DNA of 47,830 nucleotides, counting the filler, from Catajapyx aquilonaris (lineage: Eukaryota): assembly GCA_000934665.2 (NCBI GenBank). It is 2 parts of 2 records of this genome, joined end to end, with 100 filler letters (N's around TTAATTAATTAA, not from the genome) between each part and the next. Parts side by side here need not be neighbours in the genome. Positions count along the whole stretch, not along the records: positions 1 to 23,842 come from JYFJ02005611.1; 1 more part is not named here. The stretch is one strand, 5' to 3'. Made by a program: the position numbers and the translations under genes. Shown here piece after piece: positions 3,845-38,265 of this stretch. Every line of letters begins with the position of its first letter. Positions within the stretch are counted from its first letter, which is position 1. The notes under the pieces were generated by a model. That model was given only the letters and a program-made list of their open reading frames with translations. It was not told the origin of the DNA and did no database searches.

Positions 3845-5386
3845 TTATAACTTGTGCTCAGGGGGCAGACATGGTGAGGTCGCACTAATCCTCATCAGGC
3901 TCGGAAGTGCAAGAGGCAACCCTAACAACAGTGCCACGTAGAGGCAGTATGGCACTGGCGGGGTCGACCCAAATGGTGGCATCCATATTCCCCTGCGAAG
4001 GGCATCTCGGACATGGTGGGATGAAGAGGATGCAAAAACCATCCACGCCAGATGATGGAGGCAACAGCATGTCCATGATGTGGTGGTGCTGTTGGGTGTG
4101 GGACAGTGCCAGTGCAAGAGAAGCAGGGTAGCCCATAAGATAAGCCAAAATGTGGATCCGTGCAAAGGTGGCCTGTGTAGTAAACTAGTGGCATCTCTCA
4201 GGTGAATGGATCCAGCTGCAGCAAAATGGTCCAAGTCTATGATCGAGGCAACAAGGCTGGCAAAAATTGTCTCGAGGGTTAGGCGTGTCCAGCTGACTGA
4301 CCATCCCATGTAGGGGAGGATGGCTAGGGCCCAGGTAAGGCCTCCTATGGCGGCGTGGAGGCCATTGTCACCCAAGGCCAAGATGGGTCGCCTCTCCTGG
4401 ATCCATTTGAGGCCAAGGAGGGTATCTCCAAAGATGACACATGCAGACAACCCTGCAAATTTAGAAATGAAAACGATTAAAATTAAAAATTTTAAAGCAT
4501 GGAATAATCAGGATCATGACCTCGCACAGCACAAGTTGTCAAATTTCAACCAAGCAATGAGGCCTCGACATTTGACTAAATCGTCTAGTGCACCAACCTG
4601 AAACAAATACCTTTTCACACAGTAACATCCAGGTATTTGTTGGCATTAAGTTACATATGCAGGAATAATTTCATGCATGCAAAATTATCTTTGAAGGTTA
4701 ACCCTACTTAAGTCCCAGTTGAAATTATCTTCTTGCTCATAAATTGACATGCAAATATTGCCTTCCCCAATAAGCTCGACCTCCTAAACCCCACAATAAA
4801 AACCAACATTTACACACAGGAAAAAAATTGATGCAAATCATTTTAAAGGCAACAAGTGGATGCCAACGTTTTTCAAGGATGCAAACCTGCACTGAAACTT
4901 ATCAAGGGCAAAATACTTTCAATGCACATTTGACTACCCTGAAATACTGCAGTCATGTGGGGGCTTGACCACCCAACTTTCCAAAAATTGTTACAGCTGG
5001 TGTCACCCATTTCGCACCACTCAAAAACTGGCTTCCAGGTAATCGGAGACAGGCGCAGAAAATGTCATCCTCTATGAGCATATCTATTTTTTACGCATCA
5101 AAATTCTCCCACGCGCAGCAGTGCTTCCCCTAACTAATCATGTGTCCCTGGATCATCTCACCTCCGTAGAGCACAGCATATAGTATCCACAGAGCAATTG
5201 GGGGCTCCCTCTCTGCGTCCACAACCGCAACGTTGTCGTCGTCCATCAGGCAAGTCCTCTCTTCGTCTTCCTACAAGATGATGAAACCGTATTAACAAAT
5301 TGCATCACAACCACCCTTATAAAAAATAATACCTGATGCACATTAGTGTTCCTATTCATGGCAGGTTCGCCTCTTTTCCCTTCCAT
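3845..5386 (-). CDS. TMEM267: Transmembrane protein 267 (C5orf28) homolog; exons 5386-5333, 5270-5162, 4452-3845
   Basis: The last exon carries the family motifs DNGLHAAIG, ASIIDLDHF, RPPLHGST, SHHVRDALRRGIW and PFGSTPP. GT-AG junctions are phase-compatible (CAG|GTATTA, TAG|GAA; GAG|GTGAGA, CAG|GG). The start is either ATG 5386 (256 aa) or ATG 5246 (230 aa, closer to typical length). Confidence 0.9.
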
Positions 5387-5930: not shown

Positions 5931-6181
5931 AGGTCTGCCCCGGGGCTGGGATGGATGCAGGGTGTTGGCCCGTACCATTTGGGACAGACAGGCACGGGCT
6001 GGGGGCAGGGGATGGGCCGCAAAGCAGACTAGGCCTAGCTCGTGCAAGGCCACATGGCATTATTTTCATTGCAATTTGGCCACATTTCATACAAGTTAAC
6101 TGTTATGAAAAGCAGCAAAGTGCCACAGAATGCATACACAACAGTATTGCATATTAACGCTACATTAAAATTCATTTTCAG

Positions 6182-6688
6182 ATGCCGTCGGTTTCAGTGA
6201 AGGATGTGGACCAGCACAAGTTTGTACGAGCTTTTGGAGCTTTCCTTAAGAAGTAAGTGATATGTCGACTGTATCCCATGTTGGACAGGGCTGAACTGCC
6301 TTTTTGCCCTTCAAGGACAGGCAAGATGAAGGTGCCCGAGTGGGTGGACCTTGTCAAAACATCAAAGGGCAAGGAGCTGGCCCCTTACGACGAGGATTGG
6401 TTCTACACTCGGTGTGCTGCCTTGGCTCGTCATATGTACCTCCGCTTCCCAGTGGGGACCGCAGCTGCCACCAAGATATTTGGGTCCCGTAAACGCAATG
6501 GTGTCCGCCCTTCCCATCACGTTCGAGGTTCCCCATCAGTCGCACGGAAGGCACTGCAGGCCTTGGAGGGATTGAAGCTGGTCGAGAAGTCTCCTACTGG
6601 CGGACGCAGGCTCACCACGCAAGGGAGACGTGATCTGGACCGCATTGCGGCACAGATTAAGAACAAGAAAGCATTGGCCAAGGAATGA
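6182..6688 (+). CDS. RPS19: 40S ribosomal protein S19 (eS19); exons 6182-6252, 6316-6688; 147 aa
   Basis: Spliced product [39 protein letters not shown]...[16 protein letters not shown]...[16 protein letters not shown] is unmistakable eS19. Phase-2 GT-AG intron; AATAAA at 6705-6710. Confidence 0.98.
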
Positions 6689-6739
6689 AGGCTGTTAACC
6701 AGTAAATAAAATCGAATCGATTCTAAAAAGACCTATTGT

Positions 6740-7515
6740 TTATTGATTCAGCAGGCGGCAGAAGAATTTCAAGGCGCTGCCTGCCAGAATGAGAGTTCCC
6801 ACATTGCACAGGGTTTTGTGGGCGAGAGTTTGGTTCTCTGGTAGGAACACAGGGCGCATCTGGCGATGGAAGGACAATTTTGACACCAACCACAGTGCTC
6901 CACCCCACGATGCAGCGATTGGGCACTCGAGGCCACCTAACATTAGGAGCCAAATGAACTGGGGATAACTGGATATTCTGAAATCCAATTAAATTGACTT
7001 AGAATCGCTTTTGTCGCTGTGTGTTAATCGCTGTTGGCTATACTTACATGGAACTGTGGATGTAAAATAGGAATCCATATGCCTGTGGAGGCTGGCTCTT
7101 GTTAGTTATGTGCACTGGGCGCAATTGGCTCCTGCGACGTGCTTCATCCAGCTGTCAAAAGAGAGTGTCACGCATTACTAATGGTTAGAGGGATAGACAC
7201 ATGGCGGAGTAAAGCCTTGTCTGATGTAAATGCACTGCATTAATAAAACTGTCATACTTTTTTGGCCCTCCAGAGCATCACGGAAGATCCAGCAGCGACT
7301 GCCATGCAACAACAATAGCTTGCAGGGACAGTTATCTGAATGGAAGGTCCACGGTAGTAAAAGGTCTCCCACGAATTCAGCAAACCGGTGCTGCAATTGC
7401 TTGCAAACTGGCCTGCAAATTAGCTCTCGTTAAACACCTATCCACACTCGTTGCATGAAACCTTACCGATTCCCGGCCACCTCCCCGTTCCATGCACTGC
7501 TTGCAGTACCTCCAT
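6740..7515 (-). CDS. Divergent MAPEG-family (MGST3-like) membrane protein; exons 7515-7467, 7412-7258, 7151-7048, 6977-6740; 181 aa
   Basis: Three canonical GT-AG introns (54, 106, 70 nt; donors GTAAGG, GTATGA, GTAAGT) join four exons with matching phases (1, 0, 2) and no stop. The product contains ...ITVPASY...ARRR...H....YPQFIWLLMLGGLECPIAASWGGALWLVSK...NVGTLILAGSALKF, colinear with MGST3 helices. TATAAAA lies upstream and AATAAA overlaps the stop. Confidence 0.8.
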
Positions 7516-7719
7516 ATTTGCGGTATGAACTTGTTGAGTTCACATGGTTGTTGTGTTCTGTTGGGGGGGTGGCCTAGCAACCGGCATAGTGGACCGGGTC
7601 TGGATCGGGTCTGGATTTGTACTTTCCGCTCAGCAGTCAATTCGGGAGTGCCCAGTAGATGGCAGGGCTTGTCGCTAGAACGGGTCTGCCACCTGCCGAG
7701 CCAACCTTGAACTCGATGG

Positions 7720-7830
7720 ACCGGGTTTTATAAATGGAAGGGGAAGGCGGGGGCGGGGAGAGGGAAGGACAAGGAGGGAGCAGGAGACGGGGAGTGTGTG
7801 ACGTCACGTGTGTAAAAATGTCCTCTTCCG
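7720..7830. promoter_or_regulatory. Putative bidirectional promoter MGST3-like/CNK
   Basis: Minus-strand TATAAAA ~7732-7726, GC boxes (GGCGGGGGCGGGG) ~7747-7758, perfect CRE TGACGTCA 7799-7806 overlapping E-box CACGTG 7805-7810, CTTCCGG ~7825. Confidence 0.5.
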
Positions 7831-8228
7831 GTCTGGATGGAACAGCAGCAGCGATTGTGATGCGATGGGAAAGGAAGTCTGCGGATTCCTGAAGCGGAAG
7901 GAGGTTGGAGGGGGCCCCCAGGAGGAGGAGGAGGAGGAGGAGGAGAACGAGGCTGGGCCTATCTGGCCTGTTCACACGGATGCGGTAACGGGGCAGCCAG
8001 GCAGGCAGGCCTCCCATTTACTTTGCCAGAGGAAGTGAATGAAGCAGGTGAATCAAGGGCAAAGAGGAGGAGGAGGGGGAGGGGAAACAAAGAATGTACA
8101 GAGCGTAAGACCCTAGTACAGAGTAATGAATGGTGCAGGTGCACTGAAGGACTTCTTTGGCCGTAAGCATAATTTTTGTTGAATGAAATTGGTGGTTGTA
8201 ATATACAGTATTAGTTACATACAGTCAT

Positions 8229-8425: not shown

Positions 8426-8434
8426 ATCTACATA

Positions 8435-8435
<1 letters not shown>

Positions 8436-8487
<52 letters not shown>
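8436..8487. repeat. (ATT)n microsatellite
   Basis: Direct reading. Confidence 0.95.
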
Positions 8488-8640
8488 GACAACAACAACC
8501 TATATAAGGGCAAGTTTGCTTGTTTGTCCACGGCAACGGGTTGCCATAGCGACGGGTTTACATGGCATCAAACCATTGAAACAGTTTGTGCGAAGAACAT
8601 GCTATGTAATAATATTAATACATACATCTTCACGGCATTA

Positions 8641-8831: not shown

Positions 8832-8967
8832 TTAGTTCCCATAGAAGGGTAGCCAGTGGTGTCCAGGTATTACCTGACCACCTCGTTAAGACCGACATAA
8901 TGACACCAACTAATAATAATAATGTGTGTGTACAACTTTGATTGTTTTTGCAGTGAGGGGCTGAGCC

Positions 8968-11900
8968 ATGGCGTATGTGAATGTTGAGGAGTGGGAGTGT
9001 GAGCAGGTTGGGGAGTGGGTGAGGGGTCTGGGCGATGGGTGCTTGACGACTGCGGAGGTGCTGGAGAAGGCGGGGGTTGGAGGGCGGCGGTTGCTGCAAC
9101 TCAGTGCGGGTTGCCTTGAAGAGATGGGGATATGGAAGGTGGGGCATCAGGAGCTGCTTCTGGAGGCGCTGGAGCAACTGCGGTTGTTTCAGCATGAGCT
9201 GCATAGGGAGAACTTGCAGCTCCTGGCGTTGAGGGTCACCTGCAGGGCGAGGTCGCTTCTCTCAGCTCTCAGGCCACTCATCAATGCTGCTGCCGCTGCG
9301 GCTGATGGGAAGGAGGCGTCTGATGGGCTTCCAACACATGTTTTAGGTGACATTGCGTATCTGCTGGATGCTGCAAAGGACCTCCTGTCGTGGCTCCACA
9401 GGTGAATAATTTTCATGTTCATCTAGCTCACACAAAGATGGACTAGTAATGAGAGGGATGCTTTCAATCAATGCTATCAACATGTTGCGGATACAAATTA
9501 GGCCTGCTGTCTTCCTGTGTTTGCCCTGTCCTTGGGGGGACTGCAGATAACACTGTTAGTTTTTGAACTTATTAATTTTATAATTTCATGGAGTGACACT
9601 TGACTTTTTCTTAAGTCGGATTTTTAGGGCCAGTTGTATCAGGCCGCATGCATTCAAAATCTCACATGTAACAGATAGCTGTTTGTAACCATTTTCAAAC
9701 AGTGAACAATATCGGTTCAAGCTGCAATTCGTAATATATCTGACCTTGTGCAACCAGCCTTTTAAGTGTTTTTAAATATTGTGCAGCCAGCCTTTCAGCA
9801 GGAAAGGTCATGAGGGTGAGTACTTAACTGAAAGCCAGTGTGGTGCTTTGTTTTTACCATGTCACTCCTTCATTTCAGGCCCCCATTTGAGTCATCTGAA
9901 GCGTACCGTGAGCTGGAGCGTGAGCTGATGTCCCAGTGTATGTCTCTGGCTGTCCAGTCTCGTCGTGAACGCTTTGTTGAGAACCCCCTTCAGTCAGTTT
10001 ACCTCTGTGGCGAGAGGCTGGAACTGGCAGCGCGAACTCTGGTGGAGGACTGGACAGACCCCCTGGTGTTGCAACCAGCCTCGCTTGATGTGGCGACACT
10101 TAGGCGACGGCGCACAGCAGAGGACCTGGGCCTGTTGTTCCTAGATCATGGGCGGCCTGGGATACACCTGGTGGCAGCAGCACAACTTCAGAGTCCCGCA
10201 CACCTCAGTGGGAAACTCCACCGAGGGGACGAGGTGGTACAGGTCAACTACCAGACAGTGGTCGGCTGGGATGCACTAAGGGTGGGACAGTTGCTGGAAG
10301 GGAGCAGTTCAGAAGCTATTTTAACACTGAAGAGGAGACCTAGGCATGCATCAGTTTTTGGACAGATGTATATGCGGCCCTTCCGATTGCCCTCAAAGCA
10401 GCAGCAGCAGCAGCAGAGGGCATTTGTATTCTGGGCACCACCACCACCGTTGCACTTACAGCAACCCAGCATTACTATCAGGGCACCACCGCCTCCTCCA
10501 CCTCCACCGACCCCCCCACCACCATTAGCCACGTCAGAGTCTTCTGAAGACGAAGAAGAGGAGGAAGAAGAGGTGGTGGTTGCAGAAGTAGTGTCACCGC
10601 CTCTGTCAACAAGGTTTTACTTGCCAAAGCCACGGCCACCAGTTCAACGTAGGGCAACGGTGACTGGGGCATCACCCACATCAACCCGCCCACCATTGGA
10701 TTTCGATTGCTTTTGGGCTGAGATTGAGAAGCGTCGATCAAAGAGACGTAGTGGAGGGGATGAAGAAGATACTCAGATCAGAAGACCATCACCTGTGACT
10801 CCTCCTCCTCCCAGACCAGCCACATGCATTGGGACTCGCACCGACTACCCAGACACCCCATCACCACCATCCACACCGTCAACTCCTCTGACCCCCGTGT
10901 CGATAACTTCATCAAGTTCACGCAAAACATCAATGGAGAGGCCAAGACTGGACAAAAGCCAGAGCACTCCAGCATATGACATGGAGCAGTTGGAGCAAGG
11001 ACGGCAGCTGGCCAGGCCAGAGCCCAGAACCCAGCAGAAGTGTAGTGTCGGCGATGATGACGACAAGCCTCTGGAAGGTTGGCTTTATAAGTGTGAGAAG
11101 TCCAGTGCCACTCGGTGGTCCAAACGTTGGTTTGTACTCCGTCGCCACCTGCTGCACTGTTACGTAAGTCCTGAATTGGCTAGCTCAGGACAAGGAGAGA
11201 GTGTTTTGCATGTAGCTGGCTTGAAAGCCACTAATGCTCCTGAAGTACGTTCACGCCCACATGCATTCAAACTATTCCACTCAGGAGCTTCGTTTTATTT
11301 CGCTGCTGACTCCAAGGAGGAGCACCAGGTGTGGATAGAGAGATTAAGCCACGCAGCTGCCCTCAGTGCCAGGAGGCATCAGGATGTGCCAAAACCTCCC
11401 AAGTCCGAGGACAAAGGAGTAGTAACAGGAAGCAGTGGTGGTGATGGAAGACCAGGGGACGATGCGCAGAACATTCGTAAAGCATCGTCGTCACCCAGCC
11501 TGCAGCAGCCTCCACCAAAGAAGTCTGGCATACGGAAGGGACGCACTCAGTGAGTTCGTCATATATTAGCTATAGTTAATTATTTGCTCCTCTATTACAC
11601 TGCAACGGTTGAATAGCAAAAAATTATTTCAATAGTAAAGTACTTATATCTTGATTTAACTTGCTTCTTGCTTTTTGGCAGTGATGAAAAAGGTCGCCAC
11701 TCAGGATCATCCGCATCGTCATCATCATCATCCTCAGTGACCTCCGCCCCTTCCCTGTGTGCCAGCCTGGACCGCAAGTACCTCCAGCTGCTGTCCCTGG
11801 CTAGAGTGAGTCCAGAGCGGCCTGTGCCCACTGCCAAGTACCGCAGTTACCGCCGAGTGACTGCCACGTCTCCGCCCCCTCCACCATTCCCACCGCCTCC

Positions 11901-12471
11901 CCCACCCGCTGCACCACCCGTGCTTTCCCCTGCATGTCCGCCATCTCCTGATGCTTACCAAGACCGGTCCCCAGAGCAACGTTGGCTCAGCTCCCTCCGC
12001 TCCACGCTAGGCCTAAAAAGCACTGCATTGTATCATCCAGTCAGAAGGTCCCAATCTAACACTTCGACATCACCTATGCACATGGCATTTGAAATGAACC
12101 TGGATGACGCTCCTTTGACACCTCCTCCGCCTCCGCCTCCTGCAAAACCCACCGCATTTAAGCAGCTCAAGCAGCTGCTCTCCCCTCGTCCCCACCGACG
12201 TCCTCCCCCACCGGAGAGTGTCTTTGTGCTCCCCCCTGCCCTGCCCCCTGCCCCGATCCCAGCACCCACCATGGGGGTGGCAATGATTGGGAAGCAGCGA
12301 CGCACCCCTCCACCCTCAGCCCCACCTGTACCCGACTACCCTCACCTAAAATATCCCCCAATATTTGAACCTGGAACCTACTCACTTCGGGCTTCTACAT
12401 CGTCTTCCGGCTCAACCTCCATGGCTTCTGTCAAGCGGGTGCCTTCAGACCTGCAGCCACGGAAGGTGTAA
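8968..12471 (+). CDS. cnk: Connector enhancer of KSR (CNK/CNKSR) scaffold; exons 8968-9401, 9879-11549, 11682-12471; 964 aa
   Basis: SAM (WECEQVGEWVRGL...VGHQELLLEALEQL), CRIC (LLSWLHRPPF), PDZ ([26 protein letters not shown]), PH (LEGWLYK...WSKRWFVL...AFKL...FYFAADSKEE...W), and proline-rich tracts. Both introns are phase 2 GT-AG; AATAAA at 12568. Confidence 0.93.
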
Positions 12472-12968: not shown

Positions 12969-15846
12969 TCAGACGGAGGTCTCGAAAGTGACCTCTCTTC
13001 CGCCTCCCGGATGGCTCATGGCAGCGGTGGCAGTAGGGTTGACGTGCCCTTCCATCCTGGGGGGGCCGCCCATGGGCAGTTGGCCCCGCATGGACGGAGG
13101 CAGCAGGCGAGGGCTCCTGAACGCGGTGGAGGCCAAGCTGCGAGCTGGGGATGACCCAGCTAGAAGAAACATAAGCATGATCACATCCGTGTCTTATCAA
13201 TTTTTAAAAACTGCATTTGTACATAACCTCCACATTTAAATAAGGTCAGGCTTGTCAGACTGTATCATCTCATCTGCAGGTAACATCCACCAGAGCACAA
13301 AGTGCCCCCCTGTTAGTGCACCCTTCCCCTTTGATAGGCTTCCATTGAATGGGCACAATAAATAACTGAATTTCCCAGAAGAGTGACAATCAGATTGGGA
13401 CGTCCCTTTTGTGCTCCAGCGTTTGTTACCCTCTGTAAAGGCATTCGCTCTGCAAATAGCTTTTCCTAATCAGACCCGCTATCTGGATACGTGGGTGTTG
13501 TCTATCTCCGACGAGCAAAATCAATAGCCGTCCCATCATTCGCTATGAACACACTTTCGAGAACTAATAATGCACAAGCCGTGCTTGCATGCTAATTGAT
13601 TTTTCAGTGGCAATGGCACTGTTTGCATGTCGCTGACAACAAACGTTACGCCAACACTGCGGTTGTGATTTTTCTGGCGCCTTGCCAGCAGGCACGTGTG
13701 GAAGTTGGTGTGACATTTAGTCCAGCTTGCGTTTCCGTAGTGACAGTGTCGTAATACCTCTACAGTGCGGCTATTGATGTGCATGTCAGATAAACGTGAG
13801 CAGTTATAAGCACCTCTATGGAGAACAAATTGAGCCAACCAGTCGGAGGGCTATGTGCAATAAATATTCTAAATTAGTTACATGTAGGATGTGACTAACT
13901 GTTTGAGTATATAGAGGAGGCCCTTCGGTCTGACAGCTGAGGGTGATGGAGGCGCCAGCAGTGCGACCGGACATGTCCCTTGGTTCCAGTGTTCACGGCA
14001 TCAACTGAGAGGGAGCGGTTCATTCCCTGTCTCCATGGGTCGTGGGGGCCGCCCCGAGTCCCATCCTGGCTGCTGGTGCTGGCCCCTCCGCCTGAGGACG
14101 ATGAGGGACCCAGGTGCTCATTCAAGGAGTACAGCTTGTGCGTGATGTCCTTTCCCACCAGGTTGTACATCACAGCCTCCAGGTGAGGGCGGTCCTCCAG
14201 CACAGTTCGGAGCTTGCGCCGGGGCCAGCACAGGTATGTGCTTGGCTCCTCTGCCGTCACCGTCACCTGCGTACCAGACATGTTACTATGCAATTCCTTA
14301 GAAGTTGATTACAAATCAAAGGTCATACCTGGAAGACCTCATCCGAGTCATCAGCGCAGGCCTCCCACTCTGGCGAATCCACAAACTGGTTGGCCTGGAT
14401 GTAATGCAAATGGGTTTGTTCGCAGCTGACACGCAACCTGTAACGACAACCATGTGTGTAGCAATCTGTGGTGAAAGCACCACCACCGTCGTCATGAACG
14501 ATTCAGTGATATATGTTGTACTAACAAGTAAGATGTGACACATTGCAAAGAGCACAGTTTGAACCCCATGTATCATTCACGTTCACTGTCGCCATATACG
14601 ACAACTCAATTCCTCATCATAGCAGGTCGCGTGTGACACTTGCTCAATGACTGCATATTAACTCATCAAAAAGGATAACGTTAAGAAATTATATCCCTCT
14701 TAATGGCTCTTGCAAAAGGAGAGACATGATCATGTTGACACTTGCGTGCAGATAAGATACACCTGACTGATTAGTTACATCCTACTACAATGTCAAAGAT
14801 GGTATGTCAAAAAAGAAAGATAATTTACTCACTTTCCTTTTAACAATATGGAAAGTCTTGGCCCCACAGGAGTGACCTCCTCCACCGCATACGTCTCCCC
14901 TGGTTCCAATGTCAACATTTGGGCGTCTCTCGTCATGTCACGAAAATGTTGCTTGTTCACTTTGAGCGGCTGAAATACCTGTTTGAAACCAAAGAAAAAA
15001 CACTTCATATCAAGTGCTGCACTCCGCTATTATTGTTCAGTGGTGCATTATAGTAATGAATTGCCCTCCACTTTCAAAATACAACGCTCATGGTAAATAT
15101 AGCAGGACATGTTACCTTTTGTCAACGATAGTGAACAGTTTGGCAAAATAATCAACAAATTGCTCGCCTATTTACCACGTAGTAGTATTATTAACGGATA
15201 GATGGCGCATACGCCCTCTGCCCACTCCTGCCACCTGTGCCAGAGAGTGCGATACTATCAGGTCGGACAAACATCCAACGAGTATGTCCCTTACCTTGAG
15301 GTACAGATCGACGAGTTCTGGTCGCAAGCAGGTGGGCACGAGTCGGTAAGCGATGATGAGGGCGTGTGCGAGGTTGGCGGCGCAGAAGGCTGCGTTCCAG
15401 GCGAGGGCGTCCGGGGCGCACATGGAGAGGGCTGCCCACAGCATGGCCAGGAGGAAGCCCACGGTGAGGGTCAGACGCATGATGAGGACACTCTGGCGGA
15501 AGTTGTGAGGGATCAGGAAGGCCGCCGCTAAGAAAAGGTTGGCCGCCTGGAACAATGTGTGCTGGGCGCCCTCCCACTCGGTGCAGAACTGGAGCCTGGT
15601 GAAGACACCAGTGCGGTTGCCCCCGAGGGAACCGTTGCCCATCAGGGCCGCGTCCATACCATCGTCCAGCCCTCCTGGACCCCACAGTCCCACGCCCCAT
15701 GCCAGACCCCATCTGTTCTCTATCCATGGAAAGCTCAGGTTGACCCCTGCTGCTTCGGGCCATGACTCCGGAAGGTCGTCCTCCGTGGTGGTGCTGGCGG
15801 GTTCCTCCCAACTAGAGGAGTTGGTGGAGTCTGTCGGGATCCTCAT
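12969..15846 (-). CDS. BVES: Popeye domain-containing protein, POPDC1/BVES-like; exons 15846-15295, 14978-14833, 14437-14329, 14266-13900, 13159-12969; 454 aa
   Basis: Three TM segments followed by a Popeye domain with RLSILLKGK, FVDSPEW, FQVT and GKDITHKLYSLN. All four junctions are GT-AG and phase-compatible (0, 2, 0, 1). The last exon is the least certain. Confidence 0.9.
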
Positions 15847-18800
15847 GGCAATCGGAGGAGGGTATAAAAGAGGGGTCGGGGCTGCCCAACCACCGCTATC
15901 AGAAATGCAATACCAAGAGACCCAGGAGCTTCGAGGATGGGTCTCTCTTCAGGTTCGGAAGCAGCATAATCACAGGACCAGCCACTGCCGATGGGGGGAT
16001 TTACAAAAGCTACGATTCCAGACCAGGATCACACCTGTCAACAAAGAAGTTGGCATTACTATTGTTGCCCCCAAGACATTGCCCCCTGTAAATCAGGCAA
16101 TATGTACGGCAACAGAGGCTCATAGGTTACCTGGCTTCCAGGATGAAACAATCCAACCGAGGATTATTAACATAGTGATTAAAAAATCTAGCTGGAAAGT
16201 GTCCTACATATAGGACAGTGGGTCGACCAGCTACTCATTTTTGCGTGCAATAATTTTGCAATTTTGTTATTTTTTTCGGGCATTGCAAACGCTTTACATC
16301 ATTTTCAATGTACAAAAAACCGGGCGGAGGAAAACTTGACAGAAAGGGCCGGTTGTATGGTGTACGTGTAACGATAAAAGCGTCGCAAATTTATAGCCTT
16401 TTTAGTCTGAAAAAAGTAATGTCGTATATATGGGAACAGATAAGATCAATGGAGCTGAAGAAAAGTCGGCAGTCTACAGCGTACCATAATGGAAAGTAGA
16501 TCTAGGTTAATGTTCCTTTCATGATGAGTTGTCTACTGATGTCCCCCCAAGATGTATCGGTTGATGGTGACGTTACAGGCGCCAGCGATTGTTAATATGT
16601 TTATAGTTCGTCCAATCGCATGTTGAGGAGAAAATTGGATCCCCCACTTTAACCCCCCCCCCCCCCCCACGCTAACTTATAATGCAATTTGATTGTCGGA
16701 CGAACAAGCAGCCATTTCGCATATCGAATTTTGTCCCCACGCAATGACACTTAGTGACGTGTCATTTCATGGGAGAAGGCTCTACCGAATTGCTAAGTAT
16801 GGCTCTTACAGTATGAACACTTGTTGCTTGAGGAATGTAAGCTACCACCAATGAAATTAACCACATTAATTGGTTTTAAAAAATTATTCATATTGATGAA
16901 TTTATTTATACGTTTTTCCAAAGATGTCGCACTGTCAGTGTCAATTGGCATAAAAATGCTATTTTTGACACATATTGGGTCTAATTTTTCATTCCACTGT
17001 GTAATACTTCAAATTCGTTGCATACACACTGATAAATATTGCATCTTACGAAGCAATCTCGTGCATATGTAAAACAGAAGTTTGTTTGCATGTATGACCT
17101 AACCCACTTCGGAGTACTGAGAGTCTTGAAACTGACGTCTTACATGCCGCTGATTCCGGGAAAAGTCCGAAAATCGCACTTTTTTGAGTCTAAATGCCCA
17201 AAATTTATGATTCTTAAATGATGTTTGGTTAACTTCGGCAACTGTAGCACATTTGTTAATTTTTGACCAAATTGACCTCGGAATTGACCAGTTGAAGATC
17301 ACTCTACAGTTTGTGTGAACTGGGGGGGTCAATACCTCACAGACCATAATACCAACAGGGTACATGTGTCCCAAATGCGTCATTCGGGAGGTCAATAACT
17401 CCCTCTTCAAAACCCCCACAAGAATGCCAACACAATCTATACGCATTGTTCCCACCTCCGACCTCATTTCCCCCCTACACTAGATCAGATAGCACCTTCC
17501 ACACGTACTATTTCCATTTCCACCTATAACCCACCCCCTTCTTCTCCACCACCCAACCACCCCTCCCTTAAAATTGTTCCCAAGCACGCAAAGGGCACTG
17601 CATAAAGGAACATACAAAACCCCTATGGGCGATAATAGCCGACGTTGACTGGATGGATTATGGGGGCACGCCCAGGGGGGTGTTTTAGCCACGCATTTCA
17701 TATATGCCATTATGTCATCCAGATGCGTGAGGTCATGCACATTTCTGAAGGAAAAAAAATGATCGTGACCTCTCCCAATATGTGCCTGATTATTATTAGA
17801 TCTTTGTGACAATGTGGCCCACGAGGTCTTGCGGATGGCGCGTCGGTGTTGGATGGACGCCAAACAGGCCAGTTTTTGCCAGAATCTTGCCGCAGTCCAA
17901 GGGCAGGATTTTTTTTTCTTCTTCTTTGCAAACGAATACGGCGAGTCTCATGTCTGAACATGCTGAAGTAACGGTTAAAATATGACGGTTAGTTACCTGT
18001 TTTCAGGTGACGCCACCGTCCATCAGGGTGCGTATCGGGGTCGCAGAGCTGGGTGTGTGCCCAGCCGACTACTATGGCACACTAGATGGAACTTGCTGAT
18101 GGAGGCCCCCATCACCCCCCATCCACCGACGACGCCGCCGACGCCTCTGCATGCGCCACCCCTTCCCACCGACGCCGTTGCCCGGCGACGCCCTCGACGC
18201 CAGATTATCGACCATATGCCGCTTACGCCCTCTTTTTTTTTTTTTTTGGCAAGATCAGTTTTAGGGGTATTGATAGGTAAGGATAATAAATCATGAAGAG
18301 GTGAACGGCCAAGTACTGGTTTTAGGCCGGTGACACTTTGTCTATATTATTTTGGGATGGTAATAGAGTCCTGCTCGTACAGTACCTGCGATATGAAATG
18401 ATAACTACCCAATAGCATCGATTGACTTGCCATGCCCGGCCTATCTGTCATGAATCATGAAATTGGAGGATTTGTCGGGTTTACTTGCACGATATGAATA
18501 ATAAGAAGCCGCAATTTGCCAATCACGATTGTTTGTCCTTCTGAGCGGGTATTATGTATTCATGAAAATTAGGGATGTGTGGGATGTGTAGGGTACCTGG
18601 CAGAAACACACATCTGTCAGCGATAAAACTACTATGTGTGCGAAAATGCTCCAGAATTAAGGACGTCATGATTGCTCAACAAATTGCGCCACATGCCTTA
18701 TAGTGTGTGAATCAAATTAGGAAAAAAATTATCTAGCATTTACAATATGAAGATTTCTCATGTTTACACTTCTGCAGTAACTGCATAGAACCGTCTACAG

Positions 18801-19080: not shown

Positions 19081-21736
19081 CTATAAGAGCTGATCAGAGT
19101 CTCTCTGATAACGAGGCAAGAGGACATTGGTTTGAGCTTTTCTATCCGCTTCGTCGTTGGGGCAAGACTCGGCGTCCTCCATGTCGCAGGAATGGTAATT
19201 GGATGACCCCGTGCCCTGGTCACACTCTGAGGCGTCGAGGTCGTCGCAAGATGGCATCTCCGGAAGTGGCTCCATCTGCTGGAGCAGCAAAGGCGCCATC
19301 TCCGGACTGACGCATCCTCCAAAGGACAGTAGCCTCCCGTTGGCCAAAGAGCTGCTTCGACTGCTTCCACCCCCTAAGGTTGTCGAGTACCTCTGTCAAT
19401 CTGTACACTCAACACTGATGCTGATGGTGCTGTGTATGTGCACCCGTGCATATATACATTCTGTGTATTATGTGCCCAGCAAGTGAAAGATGCCATTGTG
19501 AAAACAGTGTATGTACAGTACAAAGGGGGGGCGACACACGTGTGTACACTGACACGACACGGTGAACGTCACATCGACAGCGGAAAGAAGAGGTGGAAGT
19601 GCGACATATAGGAGGAAGTTACGGTGGTCATCACACGGACGAGGCGTCATGATCTGTAATATTATGACGCACACAGCTGGATTAGGTGGGTTCAACATTA
19701 AAGCACCAGTGGCAATGGCGTACGCTGGTGTACACATCAGGATCTACCAGTGTTTGGAACTGCGTACGCCTATGCCATATAAGAGGAGGAAGAGGATGCG
19801 TCACTAACTATACAGTATAGCCATGCACTGCCGTACACATTTACTTATTAATATGACAGATTGAGTGTTGACGGCAGCAACCATGCATGTCCAAGCAAGC
19901 CAGCAACTTGAGTCATACGTGCCGTTTGTGCTGTAGTAGGCCTATTTCCAGGAGACAAACATATAAGATACATTTCCAGTCTGCCTGTACCTGACTCTGG
20001 AGAGTAGCTCCTTCTCCTGCCCCCCACGTTGTTTCCGGAGATGGACACCCTGGCACTTCGAAGAGGACTCTTGCTGGTCGTAGTACCGTCGCTGCTCTCG
20101 TACAATGTCAGAGTGGACGTCAGGGAAGGCAAACGGATGTCCAGATGGGAGCCCTTTTCCGTCACAATCTGACAATGTTGAAGGACATGTTTGACACAGT
20201 ATTTGTGTACGTAATACGTTGGCAAAAAGGGAGGACTTTTTGCTACATATAGTAAAAGTAAAATGACAGGGTGCCGTACCCTCAAAATGTCATCGTAAAT
20301 ATCTGAAACGATCCCTTCGCTCCGGACTAATACCATGTAATTTGTGTTCGGACATACACGCGAGCAGTATACCTTTTTGTTCATGGCATACAACTTGGTG
20401 GTGATGTCCCTGGCAATGAGTGTGGCCATAACCGTGGCCAAGTATGGCTCCTTCACGAAAATATACTCCAAGGCGGACCTTTGCCAAAACAGGTACAGAC
20501 AAGGTGTGGCAGCAATGATGGACACCTTGAACTTGTCCTCCATGGCAGCCCTGCTGGATTCGAACTCAGGAGAGTCCAGGAACTGCTTTGGGATAATATG
20601 GTGGAGGAAGTGGCTGTCTGACATCACGTTGATCTTTCCCGAAACCAAAAGTCCCAGTCTGTCTGTCCTGGTCAGCTTCTGCATTGCGTAGGCCTCTCCT
20701 GCGTGCAGGCTTAACAGTTGGGCGTATTCGGAGCTGACAAGTCTCTTAAACAGCAGGCGTGACACCTAATGCAAACATTAGCTAATTAATTGCACTGTAT
20801 GTACACTGCACCTGTTATAAATTAAAGCATAGTGGCCTCGAAATGTCTGGAGGGCGAATCTAGCCAAACACGCAGCACATAATGTATGTCAAAGTGTGAA
20901 CCAGGCTGACCACCCTATATACATTTTGAGGTCACAATCTACAAGAAATAGAGGTCCACCCACGCTAAGAGGCTGAAATAGACAGTGGTAGATGGGCTCC
21001 AACTCTGGCTCGAACTTGACCGGTCTCATCTGGTAGATAATATACAGCATCTGTCCCATGTTGAGTATCATAAAGGCAAAGTTCCAGGAGAAGACATCAG
21101 GAGCGCAAATGATGTTCCATGCCCATGTTGAGAAAAGCAGGAAGCCAAGTATCAACACGCAATGCATGAAGAGCAATCCTCGTCTGCTGTTTGGAGCCAG
21201 GTATGATGCGAAGAAACAACCATTGGCCATCTGGAACAGGATGTGCTGGGATGGCCTCCATGTAGCACATGCCACCAGTGCACCTATCAACAAATAAGTA
21301 ACCACTAGACAATTACAAATCCCACCAAAAACCTTTCTGTAAAAAAAGGCCAAGTTCTCCTGACTGCTTGGCCGTAAAAAGTGGTGAGATCTGATAGAGA
21401 TATGCGAGATATGCGAGATGAGATCTGCGAGATATTTTCCTCCATAGCTGGGTTTATTCTACATTATTGTAATGTCATCCAGGTAGTGCAGGATACGCCC
21501 ACAATAATTTACGTTCCAAGCCAAGCTAACCACTAACGACCTTCCAATTATTTTTAAAACCCACCTTGAAACGTGGTGTTCCATGTTGTTAGCGGATTGG
21601 GATCGTCGACCGGGAAGGAAACGATGTCTCCTCCACCGATGTCCAGGTAACTGGCATTGGTCTCCGTGGGCCATAGAGGAGGAAGAGATGATGATGAGAA
21701 GAAGAGGTCGTCCCAGTCGCTCGACTCCGACGACAT
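19081..21736 (-). CDS. Popeye domain-containing protein, POPDC2/3-like; exons 21736-21565, 21283-20964, 20765-20373, 20168-19991, 19373-19081; 451 aa
   Basis: WAWNIICAPDVFSWNF, YAMQKLTRTDRLGLLVSGKI, FLDSPEF, FKVS, DITTKLYAMN, LDIRLPSL. GT-AG junctions are phase-compatible (1, 0, 0, 1). Confidence 0.88.
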
Positions 21737-24171: not shown

Positions 24172-25600
24172 CTCGCAGGGTTGCCAGATCTAATGGGCTC
24201 TCTAAGTAAACTATGTGAATAGGGAGCTTGCATTCGGTGACGAAGACGTGAAACTCGGTACAATATAGTTCTTTGCACACTTCCGAACATATCTGGACCT
24301 GGGGACACGATGACCCACCCCGGTGGAGGGCACTATCATGGTGTTGCCAAATCTAACAGACTGTGCAACATGCGTTTATATTTTGATAGGGAGCTTGCAT
24401 TTGGTGACAAAGACGTGAAACTTGGTAGAATTGTTCTTTGGACACGTCCGAACATATCTGGACGTGTAGCCACGATGACCCACCCCGAGGGAGGGCACTA
24501 TCGCAGGGTTGCCATATCTAACAGAATGTGCAACACGTGTTTATTTTTGAATAATGAGCTTGCATTCGGTGACAAAGCCATAAAACTTGGTACGTTAGTT
24601 CTTTGGACACTTCCGAACATATCTGGACGTGGGGCCACGATGACCCACCCCGAGGGAGGGCACTATCGCGGCGTTTCCGTATATAGTCGGGGCAACCTAG
24701 GAATACTCCATATGAATAGGGAGCTTGCAATCGGTGACAAAGCCATAAAACTTGGTACGTTAGTTCTTTGGACACTTCCGAACATATCTGGACGTGGAGC
24801 CACGATGACCCACCGAATGCACGCTCATTATTTAAATATAAACACATGTTGCACATTCTGTTAGATGTGGCAACCCTGCGATAGTGCCCTCCCTCGGGGT
24901 GGGTCATCGTGGCTCCAAGTCCAGATATGTTAGGAAGTGTCCAAAGAACTAACGTAACAAGTTTTATGGCTTTGTCACCAAATGCAAGCTCCCTATCAAA
25001 ATATAAACGCATGTTGCACAGTCTGTTAGATTTGGCAACACCATGATAGTGCCCTCCAGCGGGGTGGGTCATCGTGTCCCCAGGTCCAGATATGTTCGGA
25101 AGTGTGCAAAGAACTATATTGTACCGAGTTTCACGTCTTCGTCACCGAATGCAAGCTCCCTATTCACATAGTTTACTTAGAGAGCCCATTAGATCTGGTA
25201 ACCCTGCGAGTGACCCCCAGCGGGGTCATCCATAGTGGCCTCACTTCCAGGCATGTTCAGTAGTGTCCAAAGACCAATTGGGGCGAGTTTCATGTCTTAG
25301 CAGTGTTTTATCACCGAATGCAAGGGCCTTATTCATGTAAAGGTGTGCAACACATGTTCGATTTGGCAACTCCGAGATAGTGACCCCTGGCGAGGCCACC
25401 AGAGGTCACCCACCGTGACCCCACGTCCAGATATGTTGAGATGTGTTCGAAGAACTACCGTACCGCGTTTCACGTTTTTATCGCCGAATGCAAGCCCCCA
25501 ATTTACACGATCCTCGCAGAGATGTATGTTTAGTCCGTTAGATCTGGCAACCCTGCAAGTGACCCACAGCGGGGTCAGTCATCATGACCCCACATCCAGA
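24172..25600. repeat. ~165-168 bp tandem repeat array with an orientation switch at ~24812
   Basis: Anchor GAGCTTGCATTCGGTGAC at ~24224, 24391, 24557, 24721 on +, and its reverse complement at ~24981, 25148, 25317, 25487. Confidence 0.9.
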
Positions 25601-29216: not shown

Positions 29217-30770
29217 TGTAACATCGACATGCAGATGATTTTCGTGCTAGGCGAACTTCATTGGTGTTGGGCAAGTACGATAACCTCTCACGTGAGCGTG
29301 TCATCAACTATACTATGAGTGGGTGTTACTCGTGCCCAAATCGTGGTAGGTGAAGGCCTCTGACATGTTTTGCTCGAGAACCTTAGTGTATGCTTCCTGC
29401 AATCCTCCATCTGTGACGGAACTTCTGGTTCGGTCCGGACTCTCCCGAGTGGGCGGACGGCAGGAGTCGCTCTTCTTGGTTGCTCAGTAATTTTCCCCAA
29501 GATATTAAGATTTTGACTTACATGATGCTGGTTTATTGTCGCTGACTCCACTCTTACAATCCTCCTCTCCTTCTCTCACTCACCCCCAACTTCACCCTCC
29601 ACTCTCACTCACCCAACAATCACTCCTCTCAAACCATAGCAACTTTCTTTACAATCAACCACCATTGCTGCCAACATATTTAGTACATCACATTCGTCCC
29701 CCCTTTAAAATAAGAGAGGTGTTCCTTTAACACGGAACACCTCGCCTTATCAAAGACAAGTCCCTATCGCATCCTCATCATCAACTAATCATCTCTTAAC
29801 ATCGTCTCTCAACCTCCTCATCATCCATTATTGAACTAGCTGCCTTCTGCATGGTAGGCGCGTTCTCTTTTTTATGCTCTCATCTTTCTTATTCCTCTAC
29901 TATCAAGTCGAACAAGAAACCTTCTGAAGGATAGGTCTGTTCTCTGTTCTGATTTCCCCAACATTTAACTCCAATACTCAAATCACAATAACTCAATAAC
30001 AACAACTTCTTCCGACGTCTTCTTCTTGGCCATCAGTTGTACATCATCTGTTCATGGTCCCGCATCTTCTCGTCAGTGGTGGAACCACTCAATGGTAATG
30101 TCGTCTGCTTCCTTCCTTCATGTTCTCGTCAGTGGTGGAACCACTCAATGGTAATGTCGTCTGCTTCCTTCCTTCATCTTCTTGTCAGTGGTGGAACCAC
30201 TCAATGGTAATGTCGTCTGCTTCCTTCCTTCATCTTCTCGTCAGTGGTGGACCCGCTTTGGTGTTGGCATCACCCAGGGTGTGTCTGGCACCTGGCACTG
30301 ACTCCTTAATGGGTATCTGCTATTTGTTTCATGACTGGTGTCCGGCTCAGGACTGATGTCCGGCTGTCTCTCATCCTGCTGAATCCCGCCGTAGAGCCAT
30401 GTCCAAGGGAAGTCAGGTACCGATTGGGGGGTCGTCTTATGTCCTTTAGTAGTCGGGATGTCCTCTTCTCCCATCAGTGTCGTCTCTTCTTCGCAATGGG
30501 CCTCGACAGATAAACCCTTGATCCCAGGAAATGGTTCCCTTGGGTGGAAAAGCCGCAGTCTGTCGATGTGTACCAGTTGGGTTTTTGAGTGGTGGACGTC
30601 TTGAATGACGAAGTTAACCTCACTCGTTTGTGCCTTGACACGGAATGGCCCCATCCAAGGAGATCTTAATTTTGGGCTAAGTCCTGACGGGCATTGGGGG
30701 TTGTGGAGTAGCACTAGATCTCCTTCCCCAATTTGTCTGTCTATTGCCTTCTTATCATGGTATAGTGTAG
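29217..30770 (-). mobile_element. 3' remnant of a Ty3/gypsy LTR retrotransposon (integrase C-terminus, PPT, 3' LTR 29692-29217)
   Basis: GDLVLLHNP...PKLRSPWMGPFRV...VHIDRLR (GPY/F module). Polypurine tract AAAGGGGGGACGAA directly before TGTGATG; LTR ends in ...GTTACA and contains AATAAA. Confidence 0.8.
30063..30251. repeat. ~56-bp tandem repeat (3.3 copies) inside the gypsy remnant
   Basis: CATCTTCTCGTCAGTGGTGGAACCACTCAATGGTAATGTCGTCTGCTTCCTTCCTT repeated. Confidence 0.9.
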
Positions 30771-30806
30771 AGCATAAGTTATGTGTACTGTCAAAAAAGA
30801 ACTGAA

Positions 30807-37616: not shown

Positions 37617-38265
37617 CTATACATTCTATGGCATGTTAAGTACTCCTCGAACGTGGAGGTGTCATTACTTACTCTCCAGTTACTTAGCAACTCTCGCAGT
37701 TTTTTTTTGCGATCACGAGCTCTTGATCGTACCAAGGCGTAGAGTGATTCCTACAGTTTCCAGGACTGGATGTTTTTGGGGTAAACAGGCAGCCAAATTC
37801 TCTTAAAAGACCTGTAGCACATTCATTTAAAAAATTAGCCTTGTCCTTGTCTATTCTTTGCTCATATTCTTTTAGCCAATTACTTTCAGCAATATGCGGT
37901 ATCAAATAGCTCAAATCGTACTCTGGGATGGTTAATATTTCTCTCCGCAATTCCCAACTTGCTGGTGGAGGTATATTGAGTGTTATTGCAATGCTCGCCT
38001 TGACCGGCAGATGATCTGAAATGTGCGACATGAGAATTTCCCGATCCCTCACACATGTCAATAGCGACTCCGACACAGTTACATAATCAATAACGCTGTG
38101 ACCTTGCTTACCTAGAAAGGTACAATCTCCCAACTTATCTGCAGGTAATTAACTGTTTAAAATACACAATGATTTTTCTTCCAATACTTTGAACAGTTTC
38201 CAGCCCTGTCTATTAATTACAGAATCCTTAGATTTCCTGGGTTGGAAAGAAGAGTTGTTATCTAA

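What the first reader, a model, noticed from the sequence alone, without database searches (positions are those of the whole stretch)
6740..7515. Hidden 4-exon MGST3-like (MAPEG) gene that appears to be a pseudoenzyme
Seen: four short exons splice with canonical sites into an uninterrupted 181-aa ORF, MEVLQAVHGTGRWPGIGQFASNCSTGLLNSWETFYYRGPSIQITVPASYCCCMAVAAGSSVMLWRAKKLDEARRRSQLRPVHITNKSQPPQAYGFLFYIHSSIISSYPQFIWLLMLGGLECPIAASWGGALWLVSKLSFHRQMRPVFLPENQTLAHKTLCNVGTLILAGSALKFFCRLLNQ. It has its own TATA and poly(A) signal, and only the last exon appears in the ORF track. Known: MGST2/MGST3/LTC4S bind and activate glutathione through the QRAHQNxxExYP segment, the GRxxYxxGY segment and a downstream catalytic Arg (R104 in LTC4S); FLAP is the precedent for a non-catalytic MAPEG. 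Here those segments read FYIHSSIISSYP and SKLSFHRQM and no Arg sits at the expected catalytic position. Structural residues (AR, H, YP, GG..P, W, last helix) are kept and a ~38-aa N-terminal extension is added. Inference: an intact but catalytically dead MAPEG, possibly an independently evolved FLAP-like lipid carrier or scaffold, or a regulatory subunit of MGST3 trimers, in an invertebrate.
Basis: partly seen in the sequence, partly recalled or inferred. Interest (0 to 1): 0.85.

Follow-up and report, generated by a model that had tools for sequence, protein, structure and literature searches.

The report
Active-site-less MGST3-like membrane protein gene
A small four-exon gene beside a ribosomal protein gene in an arthropod genome descends from the membrane enzyme MGST3 but has replaced every residue that family uses to hold and activate glutathione, so it is probably a non-enzymatic relative, although whether it is expressed is not yet shown.

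Summary
Four minus-strand exons (7515-7467, 7412-7258, 7151-7048, 6977-6740), all with GT..AG introns, join into 181 codons plus TAA.

A profile built from 15 arthropod MGST3 proteins matches the joined product end to end: 64.9 bits, E 3.4e-22, against 6.5 bits for the best of 200 shuffles.

It is only 21-30% identical to MGST3 proteins that are 66% identical (median) to each other. All 7 glutathione-binding or catalytic positions, which are near-invariant in 121 MGST3 proteins, are replaced.

The divergence is patchy. The two active-site segments keep 4 of 51 identities, while helix 1 and the helix 2-3 core keep 32 of 62.

Several signs argue against a long-dead pseudogene:
- the open frame;
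- hydropathy kept at changed positions;
- in-frame codon usage;
- exons richer in GC than introns.

Not shown:
- transcription (no RNA run was listed);
- exon 1 and the start codon;
- orthologues;
- a canonical MGST3 elsewhere in the genome (no genome is held);
- any function.

Verdict: probably a real, non-catalytic MGST3 derivative. The FLAP-like and regulatory-subunit ideas remain speculation.

The parts
7467..7515 (-). Putative exon 1 (49 nt): ATG at 7515-7513, 16 codons plus 1 nt, donor CG|gtaagg
   Evidence: It is the only in-phase ATG..GTRAG combination within 688 nt upstream. Shuffles give at least one in 132 of 1000 (688 nt) and 76 of 1000 (200 nt). It has no homology to MGST3. Unverified.
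7413..7466 (-). Intron 1, 54 nt, GT..AG, GC 0.43, holds an in-frame stop
7258..7412 (-). Exon 2 (155 nt): 23 extra residues, then MGST3 helix 1 (homology starts at residue 40)
   Evidence: The profile hits this frame alone at E 1.2e-3, profile positions 4-34. Alignments. There is no ATG at the ancestral start position.
7152..7257 (-). Intron 2, 106 nt, GT..AG, GC 0.41
7048..7151 (-). Exon 3 (104 nt): the kept Ala-Arg (Arg73, the equivalent of MGST2 Arg30), the loop, and the remodelled first glutathione segment (Tyr98, His100, Ser101, Ser102)
   Evidence: It gives no profile hit on its own, but it aligns without a gap inside the joined protein.
6978..7047 (-). Intron 3, 70 nt, GT..AG, GC 0.37
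6740..6977 (-). Exon 4 (238 nt including TAA at 6742-6740): Ser105; the kept Tyr-Pro-x-Phe and Gly-Gly-Leu-Glu-x-Pro core; the remodelled second glutathione segment (Lys136, Phe139, Val146, Leu154); helix 4
   Evidence: Profile E 1.3e-11. One hit among 1.84 billion representatives, a MAPEG fragment. AlphaFold2 gives helices 4-17, 19-39 and 47-77. The three best named ESM Atlas clusters are MAPEG, scores 0.88-0.84.
6739..6744 (-). AATAAA poly(A) signal overlapping the stop codon
   Evidence: A motif only. The 3' end would abut that of the convergent RPS19 gene, whose stop is at 6686-6688.
7726..7732 (-). TATAAAA, a possible TATA box 211 nt upstream of the ATG
   Evidence: A motif only; the transcription start is unknown.
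7540..7587 (-). Upstream ORF of 15 codons plus TGA, which would lie in the leader if transcription starts near the TATA box

Best explanation
This is a real gene that arose from an MGST3-type (MAPEG subgroup II) membrane glutathione transferase. It has since been kept as a membrane protein while its glutathione site was dismantled.

Shown:
- It is homologous to MGST3 over the whole MAPEG length.
- An intact spliced frame is present.
- All seven positions that bind or activate glutathione are replaced: Arg51 to Tyr, Asn55 to Ser, Glu58 to Ser, Arg90 to Lys, Tyr93 to Phe, Tyr97 to Val, Arg104 to Leu (MGST2 numbering).
- Helix 1 and the helix 2-3 packing core are kept.
- Hydrophobic character is kept at the changed positions.

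Inferred:
- The protein still folds as a four-helix MAPEG subunit in the ER or outer mitochondrial membrane and probably still forms trimers.
- It cannot make the glutathione thiolate, so it is not a glutathione transferase or peroxidase.
- The former glutathione pocket is now lined by Tyr, Ser, Phe, Val and Leu. The protein would therefore act without catalysis, either by holding a hydrophobic ligand or by joining canonical MGST3 subunits and changing their output.

Which of these two roles applies is a guess.
For: Homology:
- The profile scores 64.9 bits, E 3.4e-22, against at most 6.5 bits for 200 shuffles.
- Profile positions 4-139 of 142 align to residues 40-179.
- The only hit among 1.84 billion representatives is a MAPEG fragment: E 5.6e-4, 50% identity over 36 residues.

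Active site:
- In 121 MGST3-like proteins, Glu58 and Tyr97 are present in 121 of 121, Arg51 in 120, Arg104 in 119, Asn55 and Tyr93 in 118, and Arg90 in 102 (plus 18 Lys).
- The candidate differs at 7 of 7 of these sites. Only 3 of the 121 differ at two or more.
- The MGST2 paper (PMC7979937, passages read) reports that Arg104Ala/Lys is inactive with no thiolate signal, Arg51Ala/Lys loses nearly all activity, and Glu58Ala loses 93%.

Signs of selection:
- Substitution-only neutral drift to 40% or 30% identity left 23 of 3000 and 18 of 3000 replicates free of stops. No indel or splice-site loss was modelled.
- Hydropathy correlation at changed positions is 0.43-0.55 against each of 12 MGST3 proteins and 0.54 against their mean. 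Neutral replicates give 0.19-0.23 (sd 0.10), and 0 of 900 reach 0.54.
- Codon-usage log-odds are +22.5 bits in frame, against -42.1 and -12.2 out of frame. Exon GC3 is 0.57, against 0.37-0.43 overall GC for the introns.
- The divergence is patchy: 17 of 29 identities at residues 105-133 (97 of 10000 permutations reach this) and 1 of 29 at 134-165 (8 of 2000 permutations).
Against: - There is no evidence of transcription or of the three junctions.
- No orthologue exists in any searched collection, although the nearest relatives of this organism in the protein collection are themselves distant: the neighbouring CNK gene is at best 40% identical.
- The ancestral start codon is gone, and the proposed exon 1 could be a chance find about once in ten.
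- An upstream ORF sits in the putative leader.
- Identity at columns invariant in MGST3 (16 of 57) is no higher than overall identity (41 of 137).
- The end branch hit the ceiling of 10 changes per column, against a median of 0.27. That is also what a gene released from constraint would show.
- Exon-wise Pfam gave no MAPEG hit.
- The neutral simulations are simple: random codons, uniform rates, no indels.
Confidence: 0.55

Rival explanations
1. It is a dead or dying gene. An MGST3 copy (or the lineage's only MGST3, no longer needed) evolved under weak constraint for a long time. It is now untranscribed or untranslated, and its frame is still open only because inactivation was recent.
For: - The ancestral ATG is lost, and the replacement exon 1 is only weakly supported.
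- There is an upstream ORF in the putative leader.
- Every catalytic residue is lost.
- The branch length is extreme.
- Invariant columns are kept no better than others.
- No orthologue was found and no annotated protein matches it.
Against: - The frame is open over 142 homologous codons, whereas drift to the observed identity leaves a stop-free frame in only about 1% of replicates.
- All six splice dinucleotides are intact.
- All indels are in frame.
- Hydropathy is kept well above neutral expectation.
- Conservation is patchy rather than uniform.
- Codon usage fits the frame, and exons differ from introns in GC.

These points argue against long neutrality. They do not exclude a recent death.
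Confidence: 0.25
2. It is still an enzyme, with a rebuilt active site that uses another thiol, another substrate, or residues at new positions such as Arg141, Arg144, His140 or His156.
For: - The two segments that line the active site are the ones most thoroughly rewritten, while the scaffold is kept. Positive selection for a new pocket could do this.
- Arg73 (the Arg30 equivalent) and His100 are retained.
- Two Arg and two His lie in the helix 3-4 loop.
Against: All seven positions needed for glutathione binding and thiolate formation are replaced by residues that cannot do the same chemistry. I know of no MAPEG enzyme that works without the Arg..Asn..Glu motif; this is from recall. PMC13605077 (passages read) describes the glutathione site as conserved in all classes except FLAP.
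Confidence: 0.1
3. It is not a gene at all: a chance open frame assembled from fortuitous splice sites.
For: Exon-wise Pfam and PDB sequence searches found nothing. Exon 1 could be chance.
Against: - 64.9 bits against the MGST3 profile, versus at most 6.5 bits for 200 shuffles.
- The alignment is continuous across the joints.
- Only these frames, out of 2259 pieces in the window, match the profile.
Confidence: 0.01

Closest known systems
MGST3 (microsomal glutathione S-transferase 3; MAPEG subgroup II)
   Same: - It is the nearest sequence relative.
- Same length and order of helices, and all indels are in frame.
- The following are kept: helix 1 (15 of 33 identities), Ala-Arg, His, Tyr-Pro-x-Phe, Gly-Gly-Leu-Glu-x-Pro, and the Gly/Trp of helix 3.
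- The nearest rows on the tree are polyneopteran insect MGST3 proteins, though without support.
   Different: - 21-30% identity, where MGST3 proteins share 39-93% (median 66%) among themselves.
- All 7 glutathione or catalytic positions are replaced.
- There is a 36-39 residue N-terminal extension and no ATG at the usual start.
- Only 16 of 57 invariant columns are kept.
MGST2 and LTC4 synthase (MAPEG subgroup I, solved structures)
   Same: - Arthropod MGST3 aligns to MGST2 (6ssr, E 8.7e-14) and to LTC4S, which gave the residue mapping.
- The exon-4 model superposes on MGST2 residues 57-132 with Z 7.6 and rmsd 1.9 A over 75 of 78 residues, rank 1 of 48,161 chains.
   Different: - That Z score is tied with unrelated helical proteins (Z 7.4-7.0), and the model was built from an MGST3 alignment, so it is not independent.
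- Foldseek found no match at E 0.001 or better.
- The catalytic Arg104, Arg51 and Glu58 are absent.
FLAP (5-lipoxygenase-activating protein), the classical non-catalytic MAPEG
   Same: It would likewise be a MAPEG that works without glutathione. PMC13605077 (passages read) says FLAP's activity does not depend on glutathione and that FLAP lacks an arginine.
   Different: - FLAP belongs to subgroup I with MGST2 and LTC4S, whereas this gene derives from MGST3. Any likeness would be convergent.
- FLAP appeared only at Foldseek ranks 36-37 with E 6.2, which is not significant.

Membership tests
MAPEG superfamily (Pfam PF01124) | Significant match to a MAPEG sequence profile | tested here: met
   A profile of 15 MGST3 proteins, all carrying PF01124, gives 64.9 bits, E 3.4e-22 over 136 of 142 positions. 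The Pfam model itself found nothing in single exons. The spliced protein could not be submitted to that tool.
MAPEG superfamily (Pfam PF01124) | Four transmembrane helices in about 150 residues | tested here: inconclusive
   Hydropathy peaks lie at 45-63, 110-128 and 158-176, matching the three peaks of a termite MGST3. The exon-4 model has helices 4-17, 19-39 and 47-77, pLDDT 75. MGST2 is rank 1 by VIA-align (Z 7.6) but tied with unrelated chains. The whole protein could not be folded.
MAPEG superfamily (Pfam PF01124) | Homotrimer with sites between subunits | not testable with these tools
   The joined protein is not accepted by the folding tools. No complex job was run.
MGST3 enzymes (MAPEG subgroup II) | Arg-x3-Asn-x2-Glu glutathione motif in helix 2 | tested here: not met
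   The candidate has Tyr98, Ser102 and Ser105, where 120, 118 and 121 of 121 MGST3-like proteins have Arg, Asn and Glu.
MGST3 enzymes (MAPEG subgroup II) | Thiolate-forming Arg at the start of helix 4 (MGST2 Arg104) | tested here: not met
   The candidate has Leu154, where 119 of 121 have Arg. HMMER and MAFFT alignments give the same placement. The role of this Arg is taken from PMC7979937 passages.
MGST3 enzymes (MAPEG subgroup II) | Arg90, Tyr93 and Tyr97 segment at the end of helix 3 | tested here: not met
   The candidate has Lys136, Phe139 and Val146. There are 0 of 19 identities over residues 136-157.
MGST3 enzymes (MAPEG subgroup II) | Descent from MGST3 (nearest relatives are MGST3) | tested here: met
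   The tree places it among arthropod MGST3 proteins without support, with an end branch of 10 against a median of 0.27.
FLAP | Kinship with subgroup I FLAP sequences | tested here: inconclusive
   The candidate was never compared directly with FLAP sequences. Its best relatives are MGST3 proteins. FLAP matched the exon-4 model only at Foldseek E 6.2.
FLAP | Binds arachidonate and supports 5-lipoxygenase | not testable with these tools
   This needs biochemistry.

The most novel reading that the evidence does not exclude
An arthropod lineage has turned an MGST3 copy into a second, independently evolved non-catalytic MAPEG. Selection kept the trimer-forming helical core and specifically rewrote both glutathione-binding segments into a hydrophobic or small-polar pocket. 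The result would be either a FLAP-like lipid-presenting membrane protein or a silent subunit that enters MGST3 trimers and tunes their one-site-at-a-time catalysis.
Probability: 0.15. Interest if true: 0.7.

Novelty: new variant of a known kind. Interest (0 to 1): 0.45.

Why it matters
MGST3 is one of the most conserved small membrane enzymes. Termite and sea-anemone proteins are about 60% identical, and the glutathione-site residues are almost never changed.

A copy that keeps the scaffold but has lost all seven of those residues would be a natural experiment. It separates what the MAPEG fold needs from what catalysis needs. It would also be a second route, from subgroup II, to a glutathione-independent MAPEG alongside FLAP.

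It shows as well that short, multi-exon, highly diverged genes of this kind escape ORF-based and single-exon domain searches: exon-wise Pfam found nothing.

My three literature searches found no description of an inactive MGST3 paralogue in arthropods. The one paper holding both 'MAPEG' and 'pseudoenzyme' was seen as a listing only and concerns soluble GSTs.

The value is limited until expression and orthologues are shown.

Tried and rejected
- **Exon-wise Pfam** (exons 2, 3, 4): no MAPEG hit.
- **PDB sequence search with exon 4:** none at E up to 10.
- **Own genome:** not held, so no search for a canonical MGST3 paralogue was possible.
- **RNA runs:** no RNA holder was listed, so no reads could be laid.
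- **Exhaustive protein search with exon 4:** one hit only, so no orthologue.
- **Metagenome contigs with exon 4:** 394 pattern matches, none of which encodes a relative.
- **Foldseek of the exon-4 model against PDB:** no match at E 0.001 or better; FLAP only at E 6.2.
- **VIA-align wide search:** MGST2 ranked first but tied with unrelated helical chains.
- **ESM Atlas:** the three best named clusters are MAPEG at 0.88-0.84, below the 0.9 level, so a lead only.
- **Tree:** the candidate could not be placed; there is no starred clade.
- **Other frames at the locus:** no Pfam family on either strand in six frames across 6723-8017. No alternative-frame or second MAPEG exon in the window. This rejects both a compensated-frameshift origin of the rewritten segments and a tandem canonical copy within the window.
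- **TMEM79 paper (PMC7521923):** the passages only describe aligning it to MAPEG proteins, so it was not used further.
- **Literature search:** nothing relevant.
- **Synteny hint (weak, from contig lengths only):** in four polyneopterans (Cryptotermes, Anabrus, Periplaneta, Bacillus), canonical MGST3 and CNK lie on contigs of different length. In Ischnura and Macrosteles they lie on contigs of the same length. This cannot decide whether the gene is a paralogue or an orthologue.

Full report
**What is there**

On the minus strand, four segments join into 546 nt: 181 codons and one terminal TAA.
- The segments are 7515-7467, 7412-7258, 7151-7048 and 6977-6740.
- They are bounded by GT..AG introns of 54, 106 and 70 nt.
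- The donors are gtaagg, gtatga and gtaagt, and the acceptors end in cag.
- The neighbouring RPS19 gene has an intron of about 60 nt with a gtaagt donor (my reading of the sequence printed), so this is the local gene style.
- AATAAA (6744-6739) overlaps the stop codon. TATAAAA lies at 7732-7726.
- A 15-codon upstream ORF (7587-7540) would sit in the leader if that TATA box is used.

The gene lies tail to tail with RPS19, which is Pfam S19e at 1.4e-46; the two stop codons are 52 nt apart. Upstream it faces a CNK (connector enhancer of KSR) gene with SAM and CRIC domains at 8965-9405 and PDZ and PH domains at 9832-11553. No other frame on either strand of 6723-8017 has a Pfam family.

**Is it MAPEG?**

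Single exons give nothing against Pfam or the PDB. An exhaustive HMMER search of 1.84 billion representative proteins with exon 4 (78 aa) found one protein only. It is a 104-aa stick-insect fragment (E 5.6e-4, 50% identity over 36 residues) that is itself Pfam MAPEG at 6e-8. Its relatives are arthropod MGST3 proteins.

I built a profile from 15 full-length proteins of that set. The results were:
- The joined candidate scored 64.9 bits, E 3.4e-22, against at most 6.5 bits for 200 shuffles.
- Profile positions 4-139 of 142 aligned to residues 40-179 without a break at the exon joints.
- In a six-frame scan of the window (2259 pieces of at least 12 aa), only exon 4 (E 1.3e-11) and exon 2 (E 1.2e-3) matched. 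There is therefore no second MAPEG gene in the window.
- The ESM Atlas put exon 4 nearest to three MAPEG clusters (0.88-0.84), which is a lead only.
- An AlphaFold2 model of exon 4, built with an MGST3 alignment, has three helices (pLDDT 75).
- Foldseek found no match at E 0.001 or better.
- VIA-align ranked human MGST2 first of 48,161 chains (Z 7.6, rmsd 1.9 A, 75 of 78 residues). This is tied with unrelated helical chains and is not independent of the alignment used to build the model.

The whole protein could not be sent to Pfam or the folding tools, because joined sequence is not accepted there.

**How diverged is it?**

- The candidate is 21-30% identical to the 15 arthropod MGST3 proteins, which share 39-93% (median 66%) among themselves.
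- A wider profile search found 2247 proteins at E 0.001 or better. The 120 best listed range from insects to cnidarians and a red alga, at 46-100% identity to the termite protein.
- On a tree of 35 named MGST3 proteins plus the candidate, the candidate's end branch reached the ceiling of 10 changes per column, against a median of 0.27. It could not be placed. The nearest rows by path are polyneopteran insects.
- The 35 tree rows were chosen from 129 fetched proteins for having a named organism and for taxonomic spread.

**The active site**

One search aligns a termite MGST3 to human MGST2 (6ssr, E 8.7e-14), which gives the numbering. Passages of the MGST2 structure paper (PMC7979937) state:
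- Arg104 forms the thiolate, and Arg104Ala/Lys is inactive.
- Arg51Ala/Lys loses all or nearly all activity.
- Glu58Ala loses 93% of activity.
- Tyr97Phe keeps 26% of activity.
- Asn55 and Arg90 rearrange on glutathione binding.

Passages of PMC13605077 say three things. The Arg/Asn/Glu motif of helix 2 contacts glutathione. The glutathione site is conserved in all MAPEG classes except FLAP. MGST3 forms subgroup II and is the one eukaryotic member without a solved structure.

I then counted these positions in 121 MGST3-like proteins of 125-270 aa. Eight of the 129 fetched were dropped for length.

| Position (MGST2 numbering) | Conserved in 121 | Candidate |
|---|---|---|
| Arg51 | 120 | Tyr98 |
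| Asn55 | 118 | Ser102 |
| Glu58 | 121 | Ser105 |
| Arg90 | 102 (plus 18 Lys) | Lys136 |
| Tyr93 | 118 | Phe139 |
| Tyr97 | 121 | Val146 |
| Arg104 | 119 | Leu154 |

All seven positions are changed in the candidate. Only 3 of the 121 change two or more of them. HMMER and MAFFT place these positions the same way. Arg73 (the Arg30 equivalent), His100, Tyr107 and Pro108 are kept.

**Relic or maintained gene?**

Against a long-dead pseudogene:
- **Stop codons.** Substitution-only drift was run from six MGST3 proteins (500 replicates each, random codons). It left 81, 23, 29 and 18 of 3000 replicates free of stops at 50, 40, 35 and 30% identity. Frameshifts and loss of the six splice dinucleotides were not modelled and would lower this further (inference).
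- **Hydropathy.** At positions where the residue differs, hydropathy still correlates with MGST3. The correlation is 0.54 against the mean of 12 proteins, with 0 of 5000 permutations reaching it. Three of the 15 rows were dropped there as partial or mispredicted. Against each of the 12 proteins singly it is 0.43-0.55. Neutral replicates give 0.19-0.23, sd 0.10, and 0 of 900 reach 0.54.
- **Codon usage.** A table learned from 1949 codons of other window ORFs favours the proposed frame: +22.5 bits against -42.1 and -12.2. Exons have GC3 of 0.57, against 0.37-0.43 overall GC for the introns.
- **Patchy conservation**:

| Region (residues) | Identities to consensus |
|---|---|
| Helix 1 region (40-72) | 15 of 33 |
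| First glutathione segment (73-106) | 4 of 32 |
| Helix 2-3 core (107-135) | 17 of 29 |
| Second glutathione segment (136-157) | 0 of 19 |
| Helix 4 (158-181) | 5 of 24 |

- The best 29-residue window (17 identities) is reached by 97 of 10000 permutations. The worst (1 identity) is reached by 8 of 2000.
- The two stretches that are most conserved in the family are the most rewritten here. That is the opposite of uniform decay.

For a relic:
- Transcription is unshown (one search listed no run).
- No orthologue was found. This is weak evidence, because this organism has no close relative in the protein collection: its CNK exon is at best 40% identical to any insect protein.
- The ancestral ATG is missing.
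- Exon 1 is the only in-phase ATG..GTRAG option among 11 ATG..GT combinations, but 8-13% of shuffles give one.
- Invariant family columns are kept no better (16 of 57) than columns overall (41 of 137).

**Reading**

The most likely reading (0.55) is a real MGST3-derived gene that keeps the MAPEG scaffold and has lost glutathione chemistry, that is, a non-catalytic MAPEG. Loss of the residues is shown. Loss of activity, retention of the fold and of trimers, and any ligand or partner are inferred.

| Reading | Confidence |
|---|---|
| Non-catalytic, maintained MGST3 derivative | 0.55 |
| Recently inactivated relic | 0.25 |
| Enzyme with a rebuilt site | 0.10 |
| Chance open frame | 0.01 |

The remainder is left for readings I have not thought of. 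Whether this is an extra paralogue or the lineage's only MGST3 cannot be told, because no genome is held.

**Comparison and novelty**

The gene works, if at all, like FLAP, in being a glutathione-independent MAPEG. It is not a FLAP relative, because it descends from subgroup II. It fails the defining catalytic features of MGST3 enzymes while clearly descending from them.

Three literature searches found no report of such an arthropod gene. I rate it a new variant of a known kind, of moderate interest until expression and orthologues are shown.

Noticed in passing
window 6158-6688 (+): A ribosomal protein S19e gene. The second coding exon frame (6257-6688) is Pfam S19e at 1.4e-46. By my reading of the ORF list and the sequence printed, the first coding exon lies in frame 6158-6256 and is separated by an intron of about 60 nt with a gtaagt donor. 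The gene is convergent with the MGST3-like gene, and the two stop codons are 52 nt apart, so the two 3' ends must abut or overlap.
   Followed up: partly
window 8965-12471 (+): A CNK (connector enhancer of KSR) gene. SAM and CRIC domains at 8965-9405, PDZ and PH domains at 9832-11553, and a Pro/Ser-rich frame at 11617-12471. The best database relatives are only about 40% identical (termite, bees, leafhopper). The organism is therefore a pancrustacean or hexapod with no close relative in the protein collection.
   Followed up: partly
window 13895-15948 (-) and 19848-21458 (-): Two tandem Popeye-domain (POPDC1-3) genes. N-terminal halves at 15172-15948 (4.4e-24) and 20889-21458 (1.2e-36). C-terminal parts at 13895-14308 and 19848-20765.
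   Followed up: partly
window 30241-30807 (-), 34420-35333 (-), 37684-38949 (-): Retroelement fragments: an integrase C-terminal domain (1.1e-8) and a reverse transcriptase RVT_1 (9.8e-21). The neighbouring frames at 37684-38148 (no Pfam hit) and 38542-38949 (not scanned) may belong to the same element.
   Followed up: partly
window 24241-25141: Two overlapping 207-aa frames on opposite strands begin with the same peptide and contain repeated units of about 45 aa. This points to an inverted or palindromic repeat. Only a sub-threshold Pfam match was found.
   Followed up: no
window 8430-8500 and 44500-44600: Long trinucleotide microsatellites, read as runs of Asn, Tyr or Ile in the ORF list.
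   Followed up: no
window 3845-4507 (-): A 220-aa frame that looks like a multi-pass membrane protein but has no Pfam family at E 0.01.
   Followed up: partly
tree (proteins P0194, P0205, P0242, P0193, P0197): MGST3 proteins of sciarid flies (Bradysia, Pseudolycoriella) group inside springtail MGST3 proteins with starred support (99/93). This is odd for Diptera. It could reflect gene transfer, contamination or paralogy.
   Followed up: no
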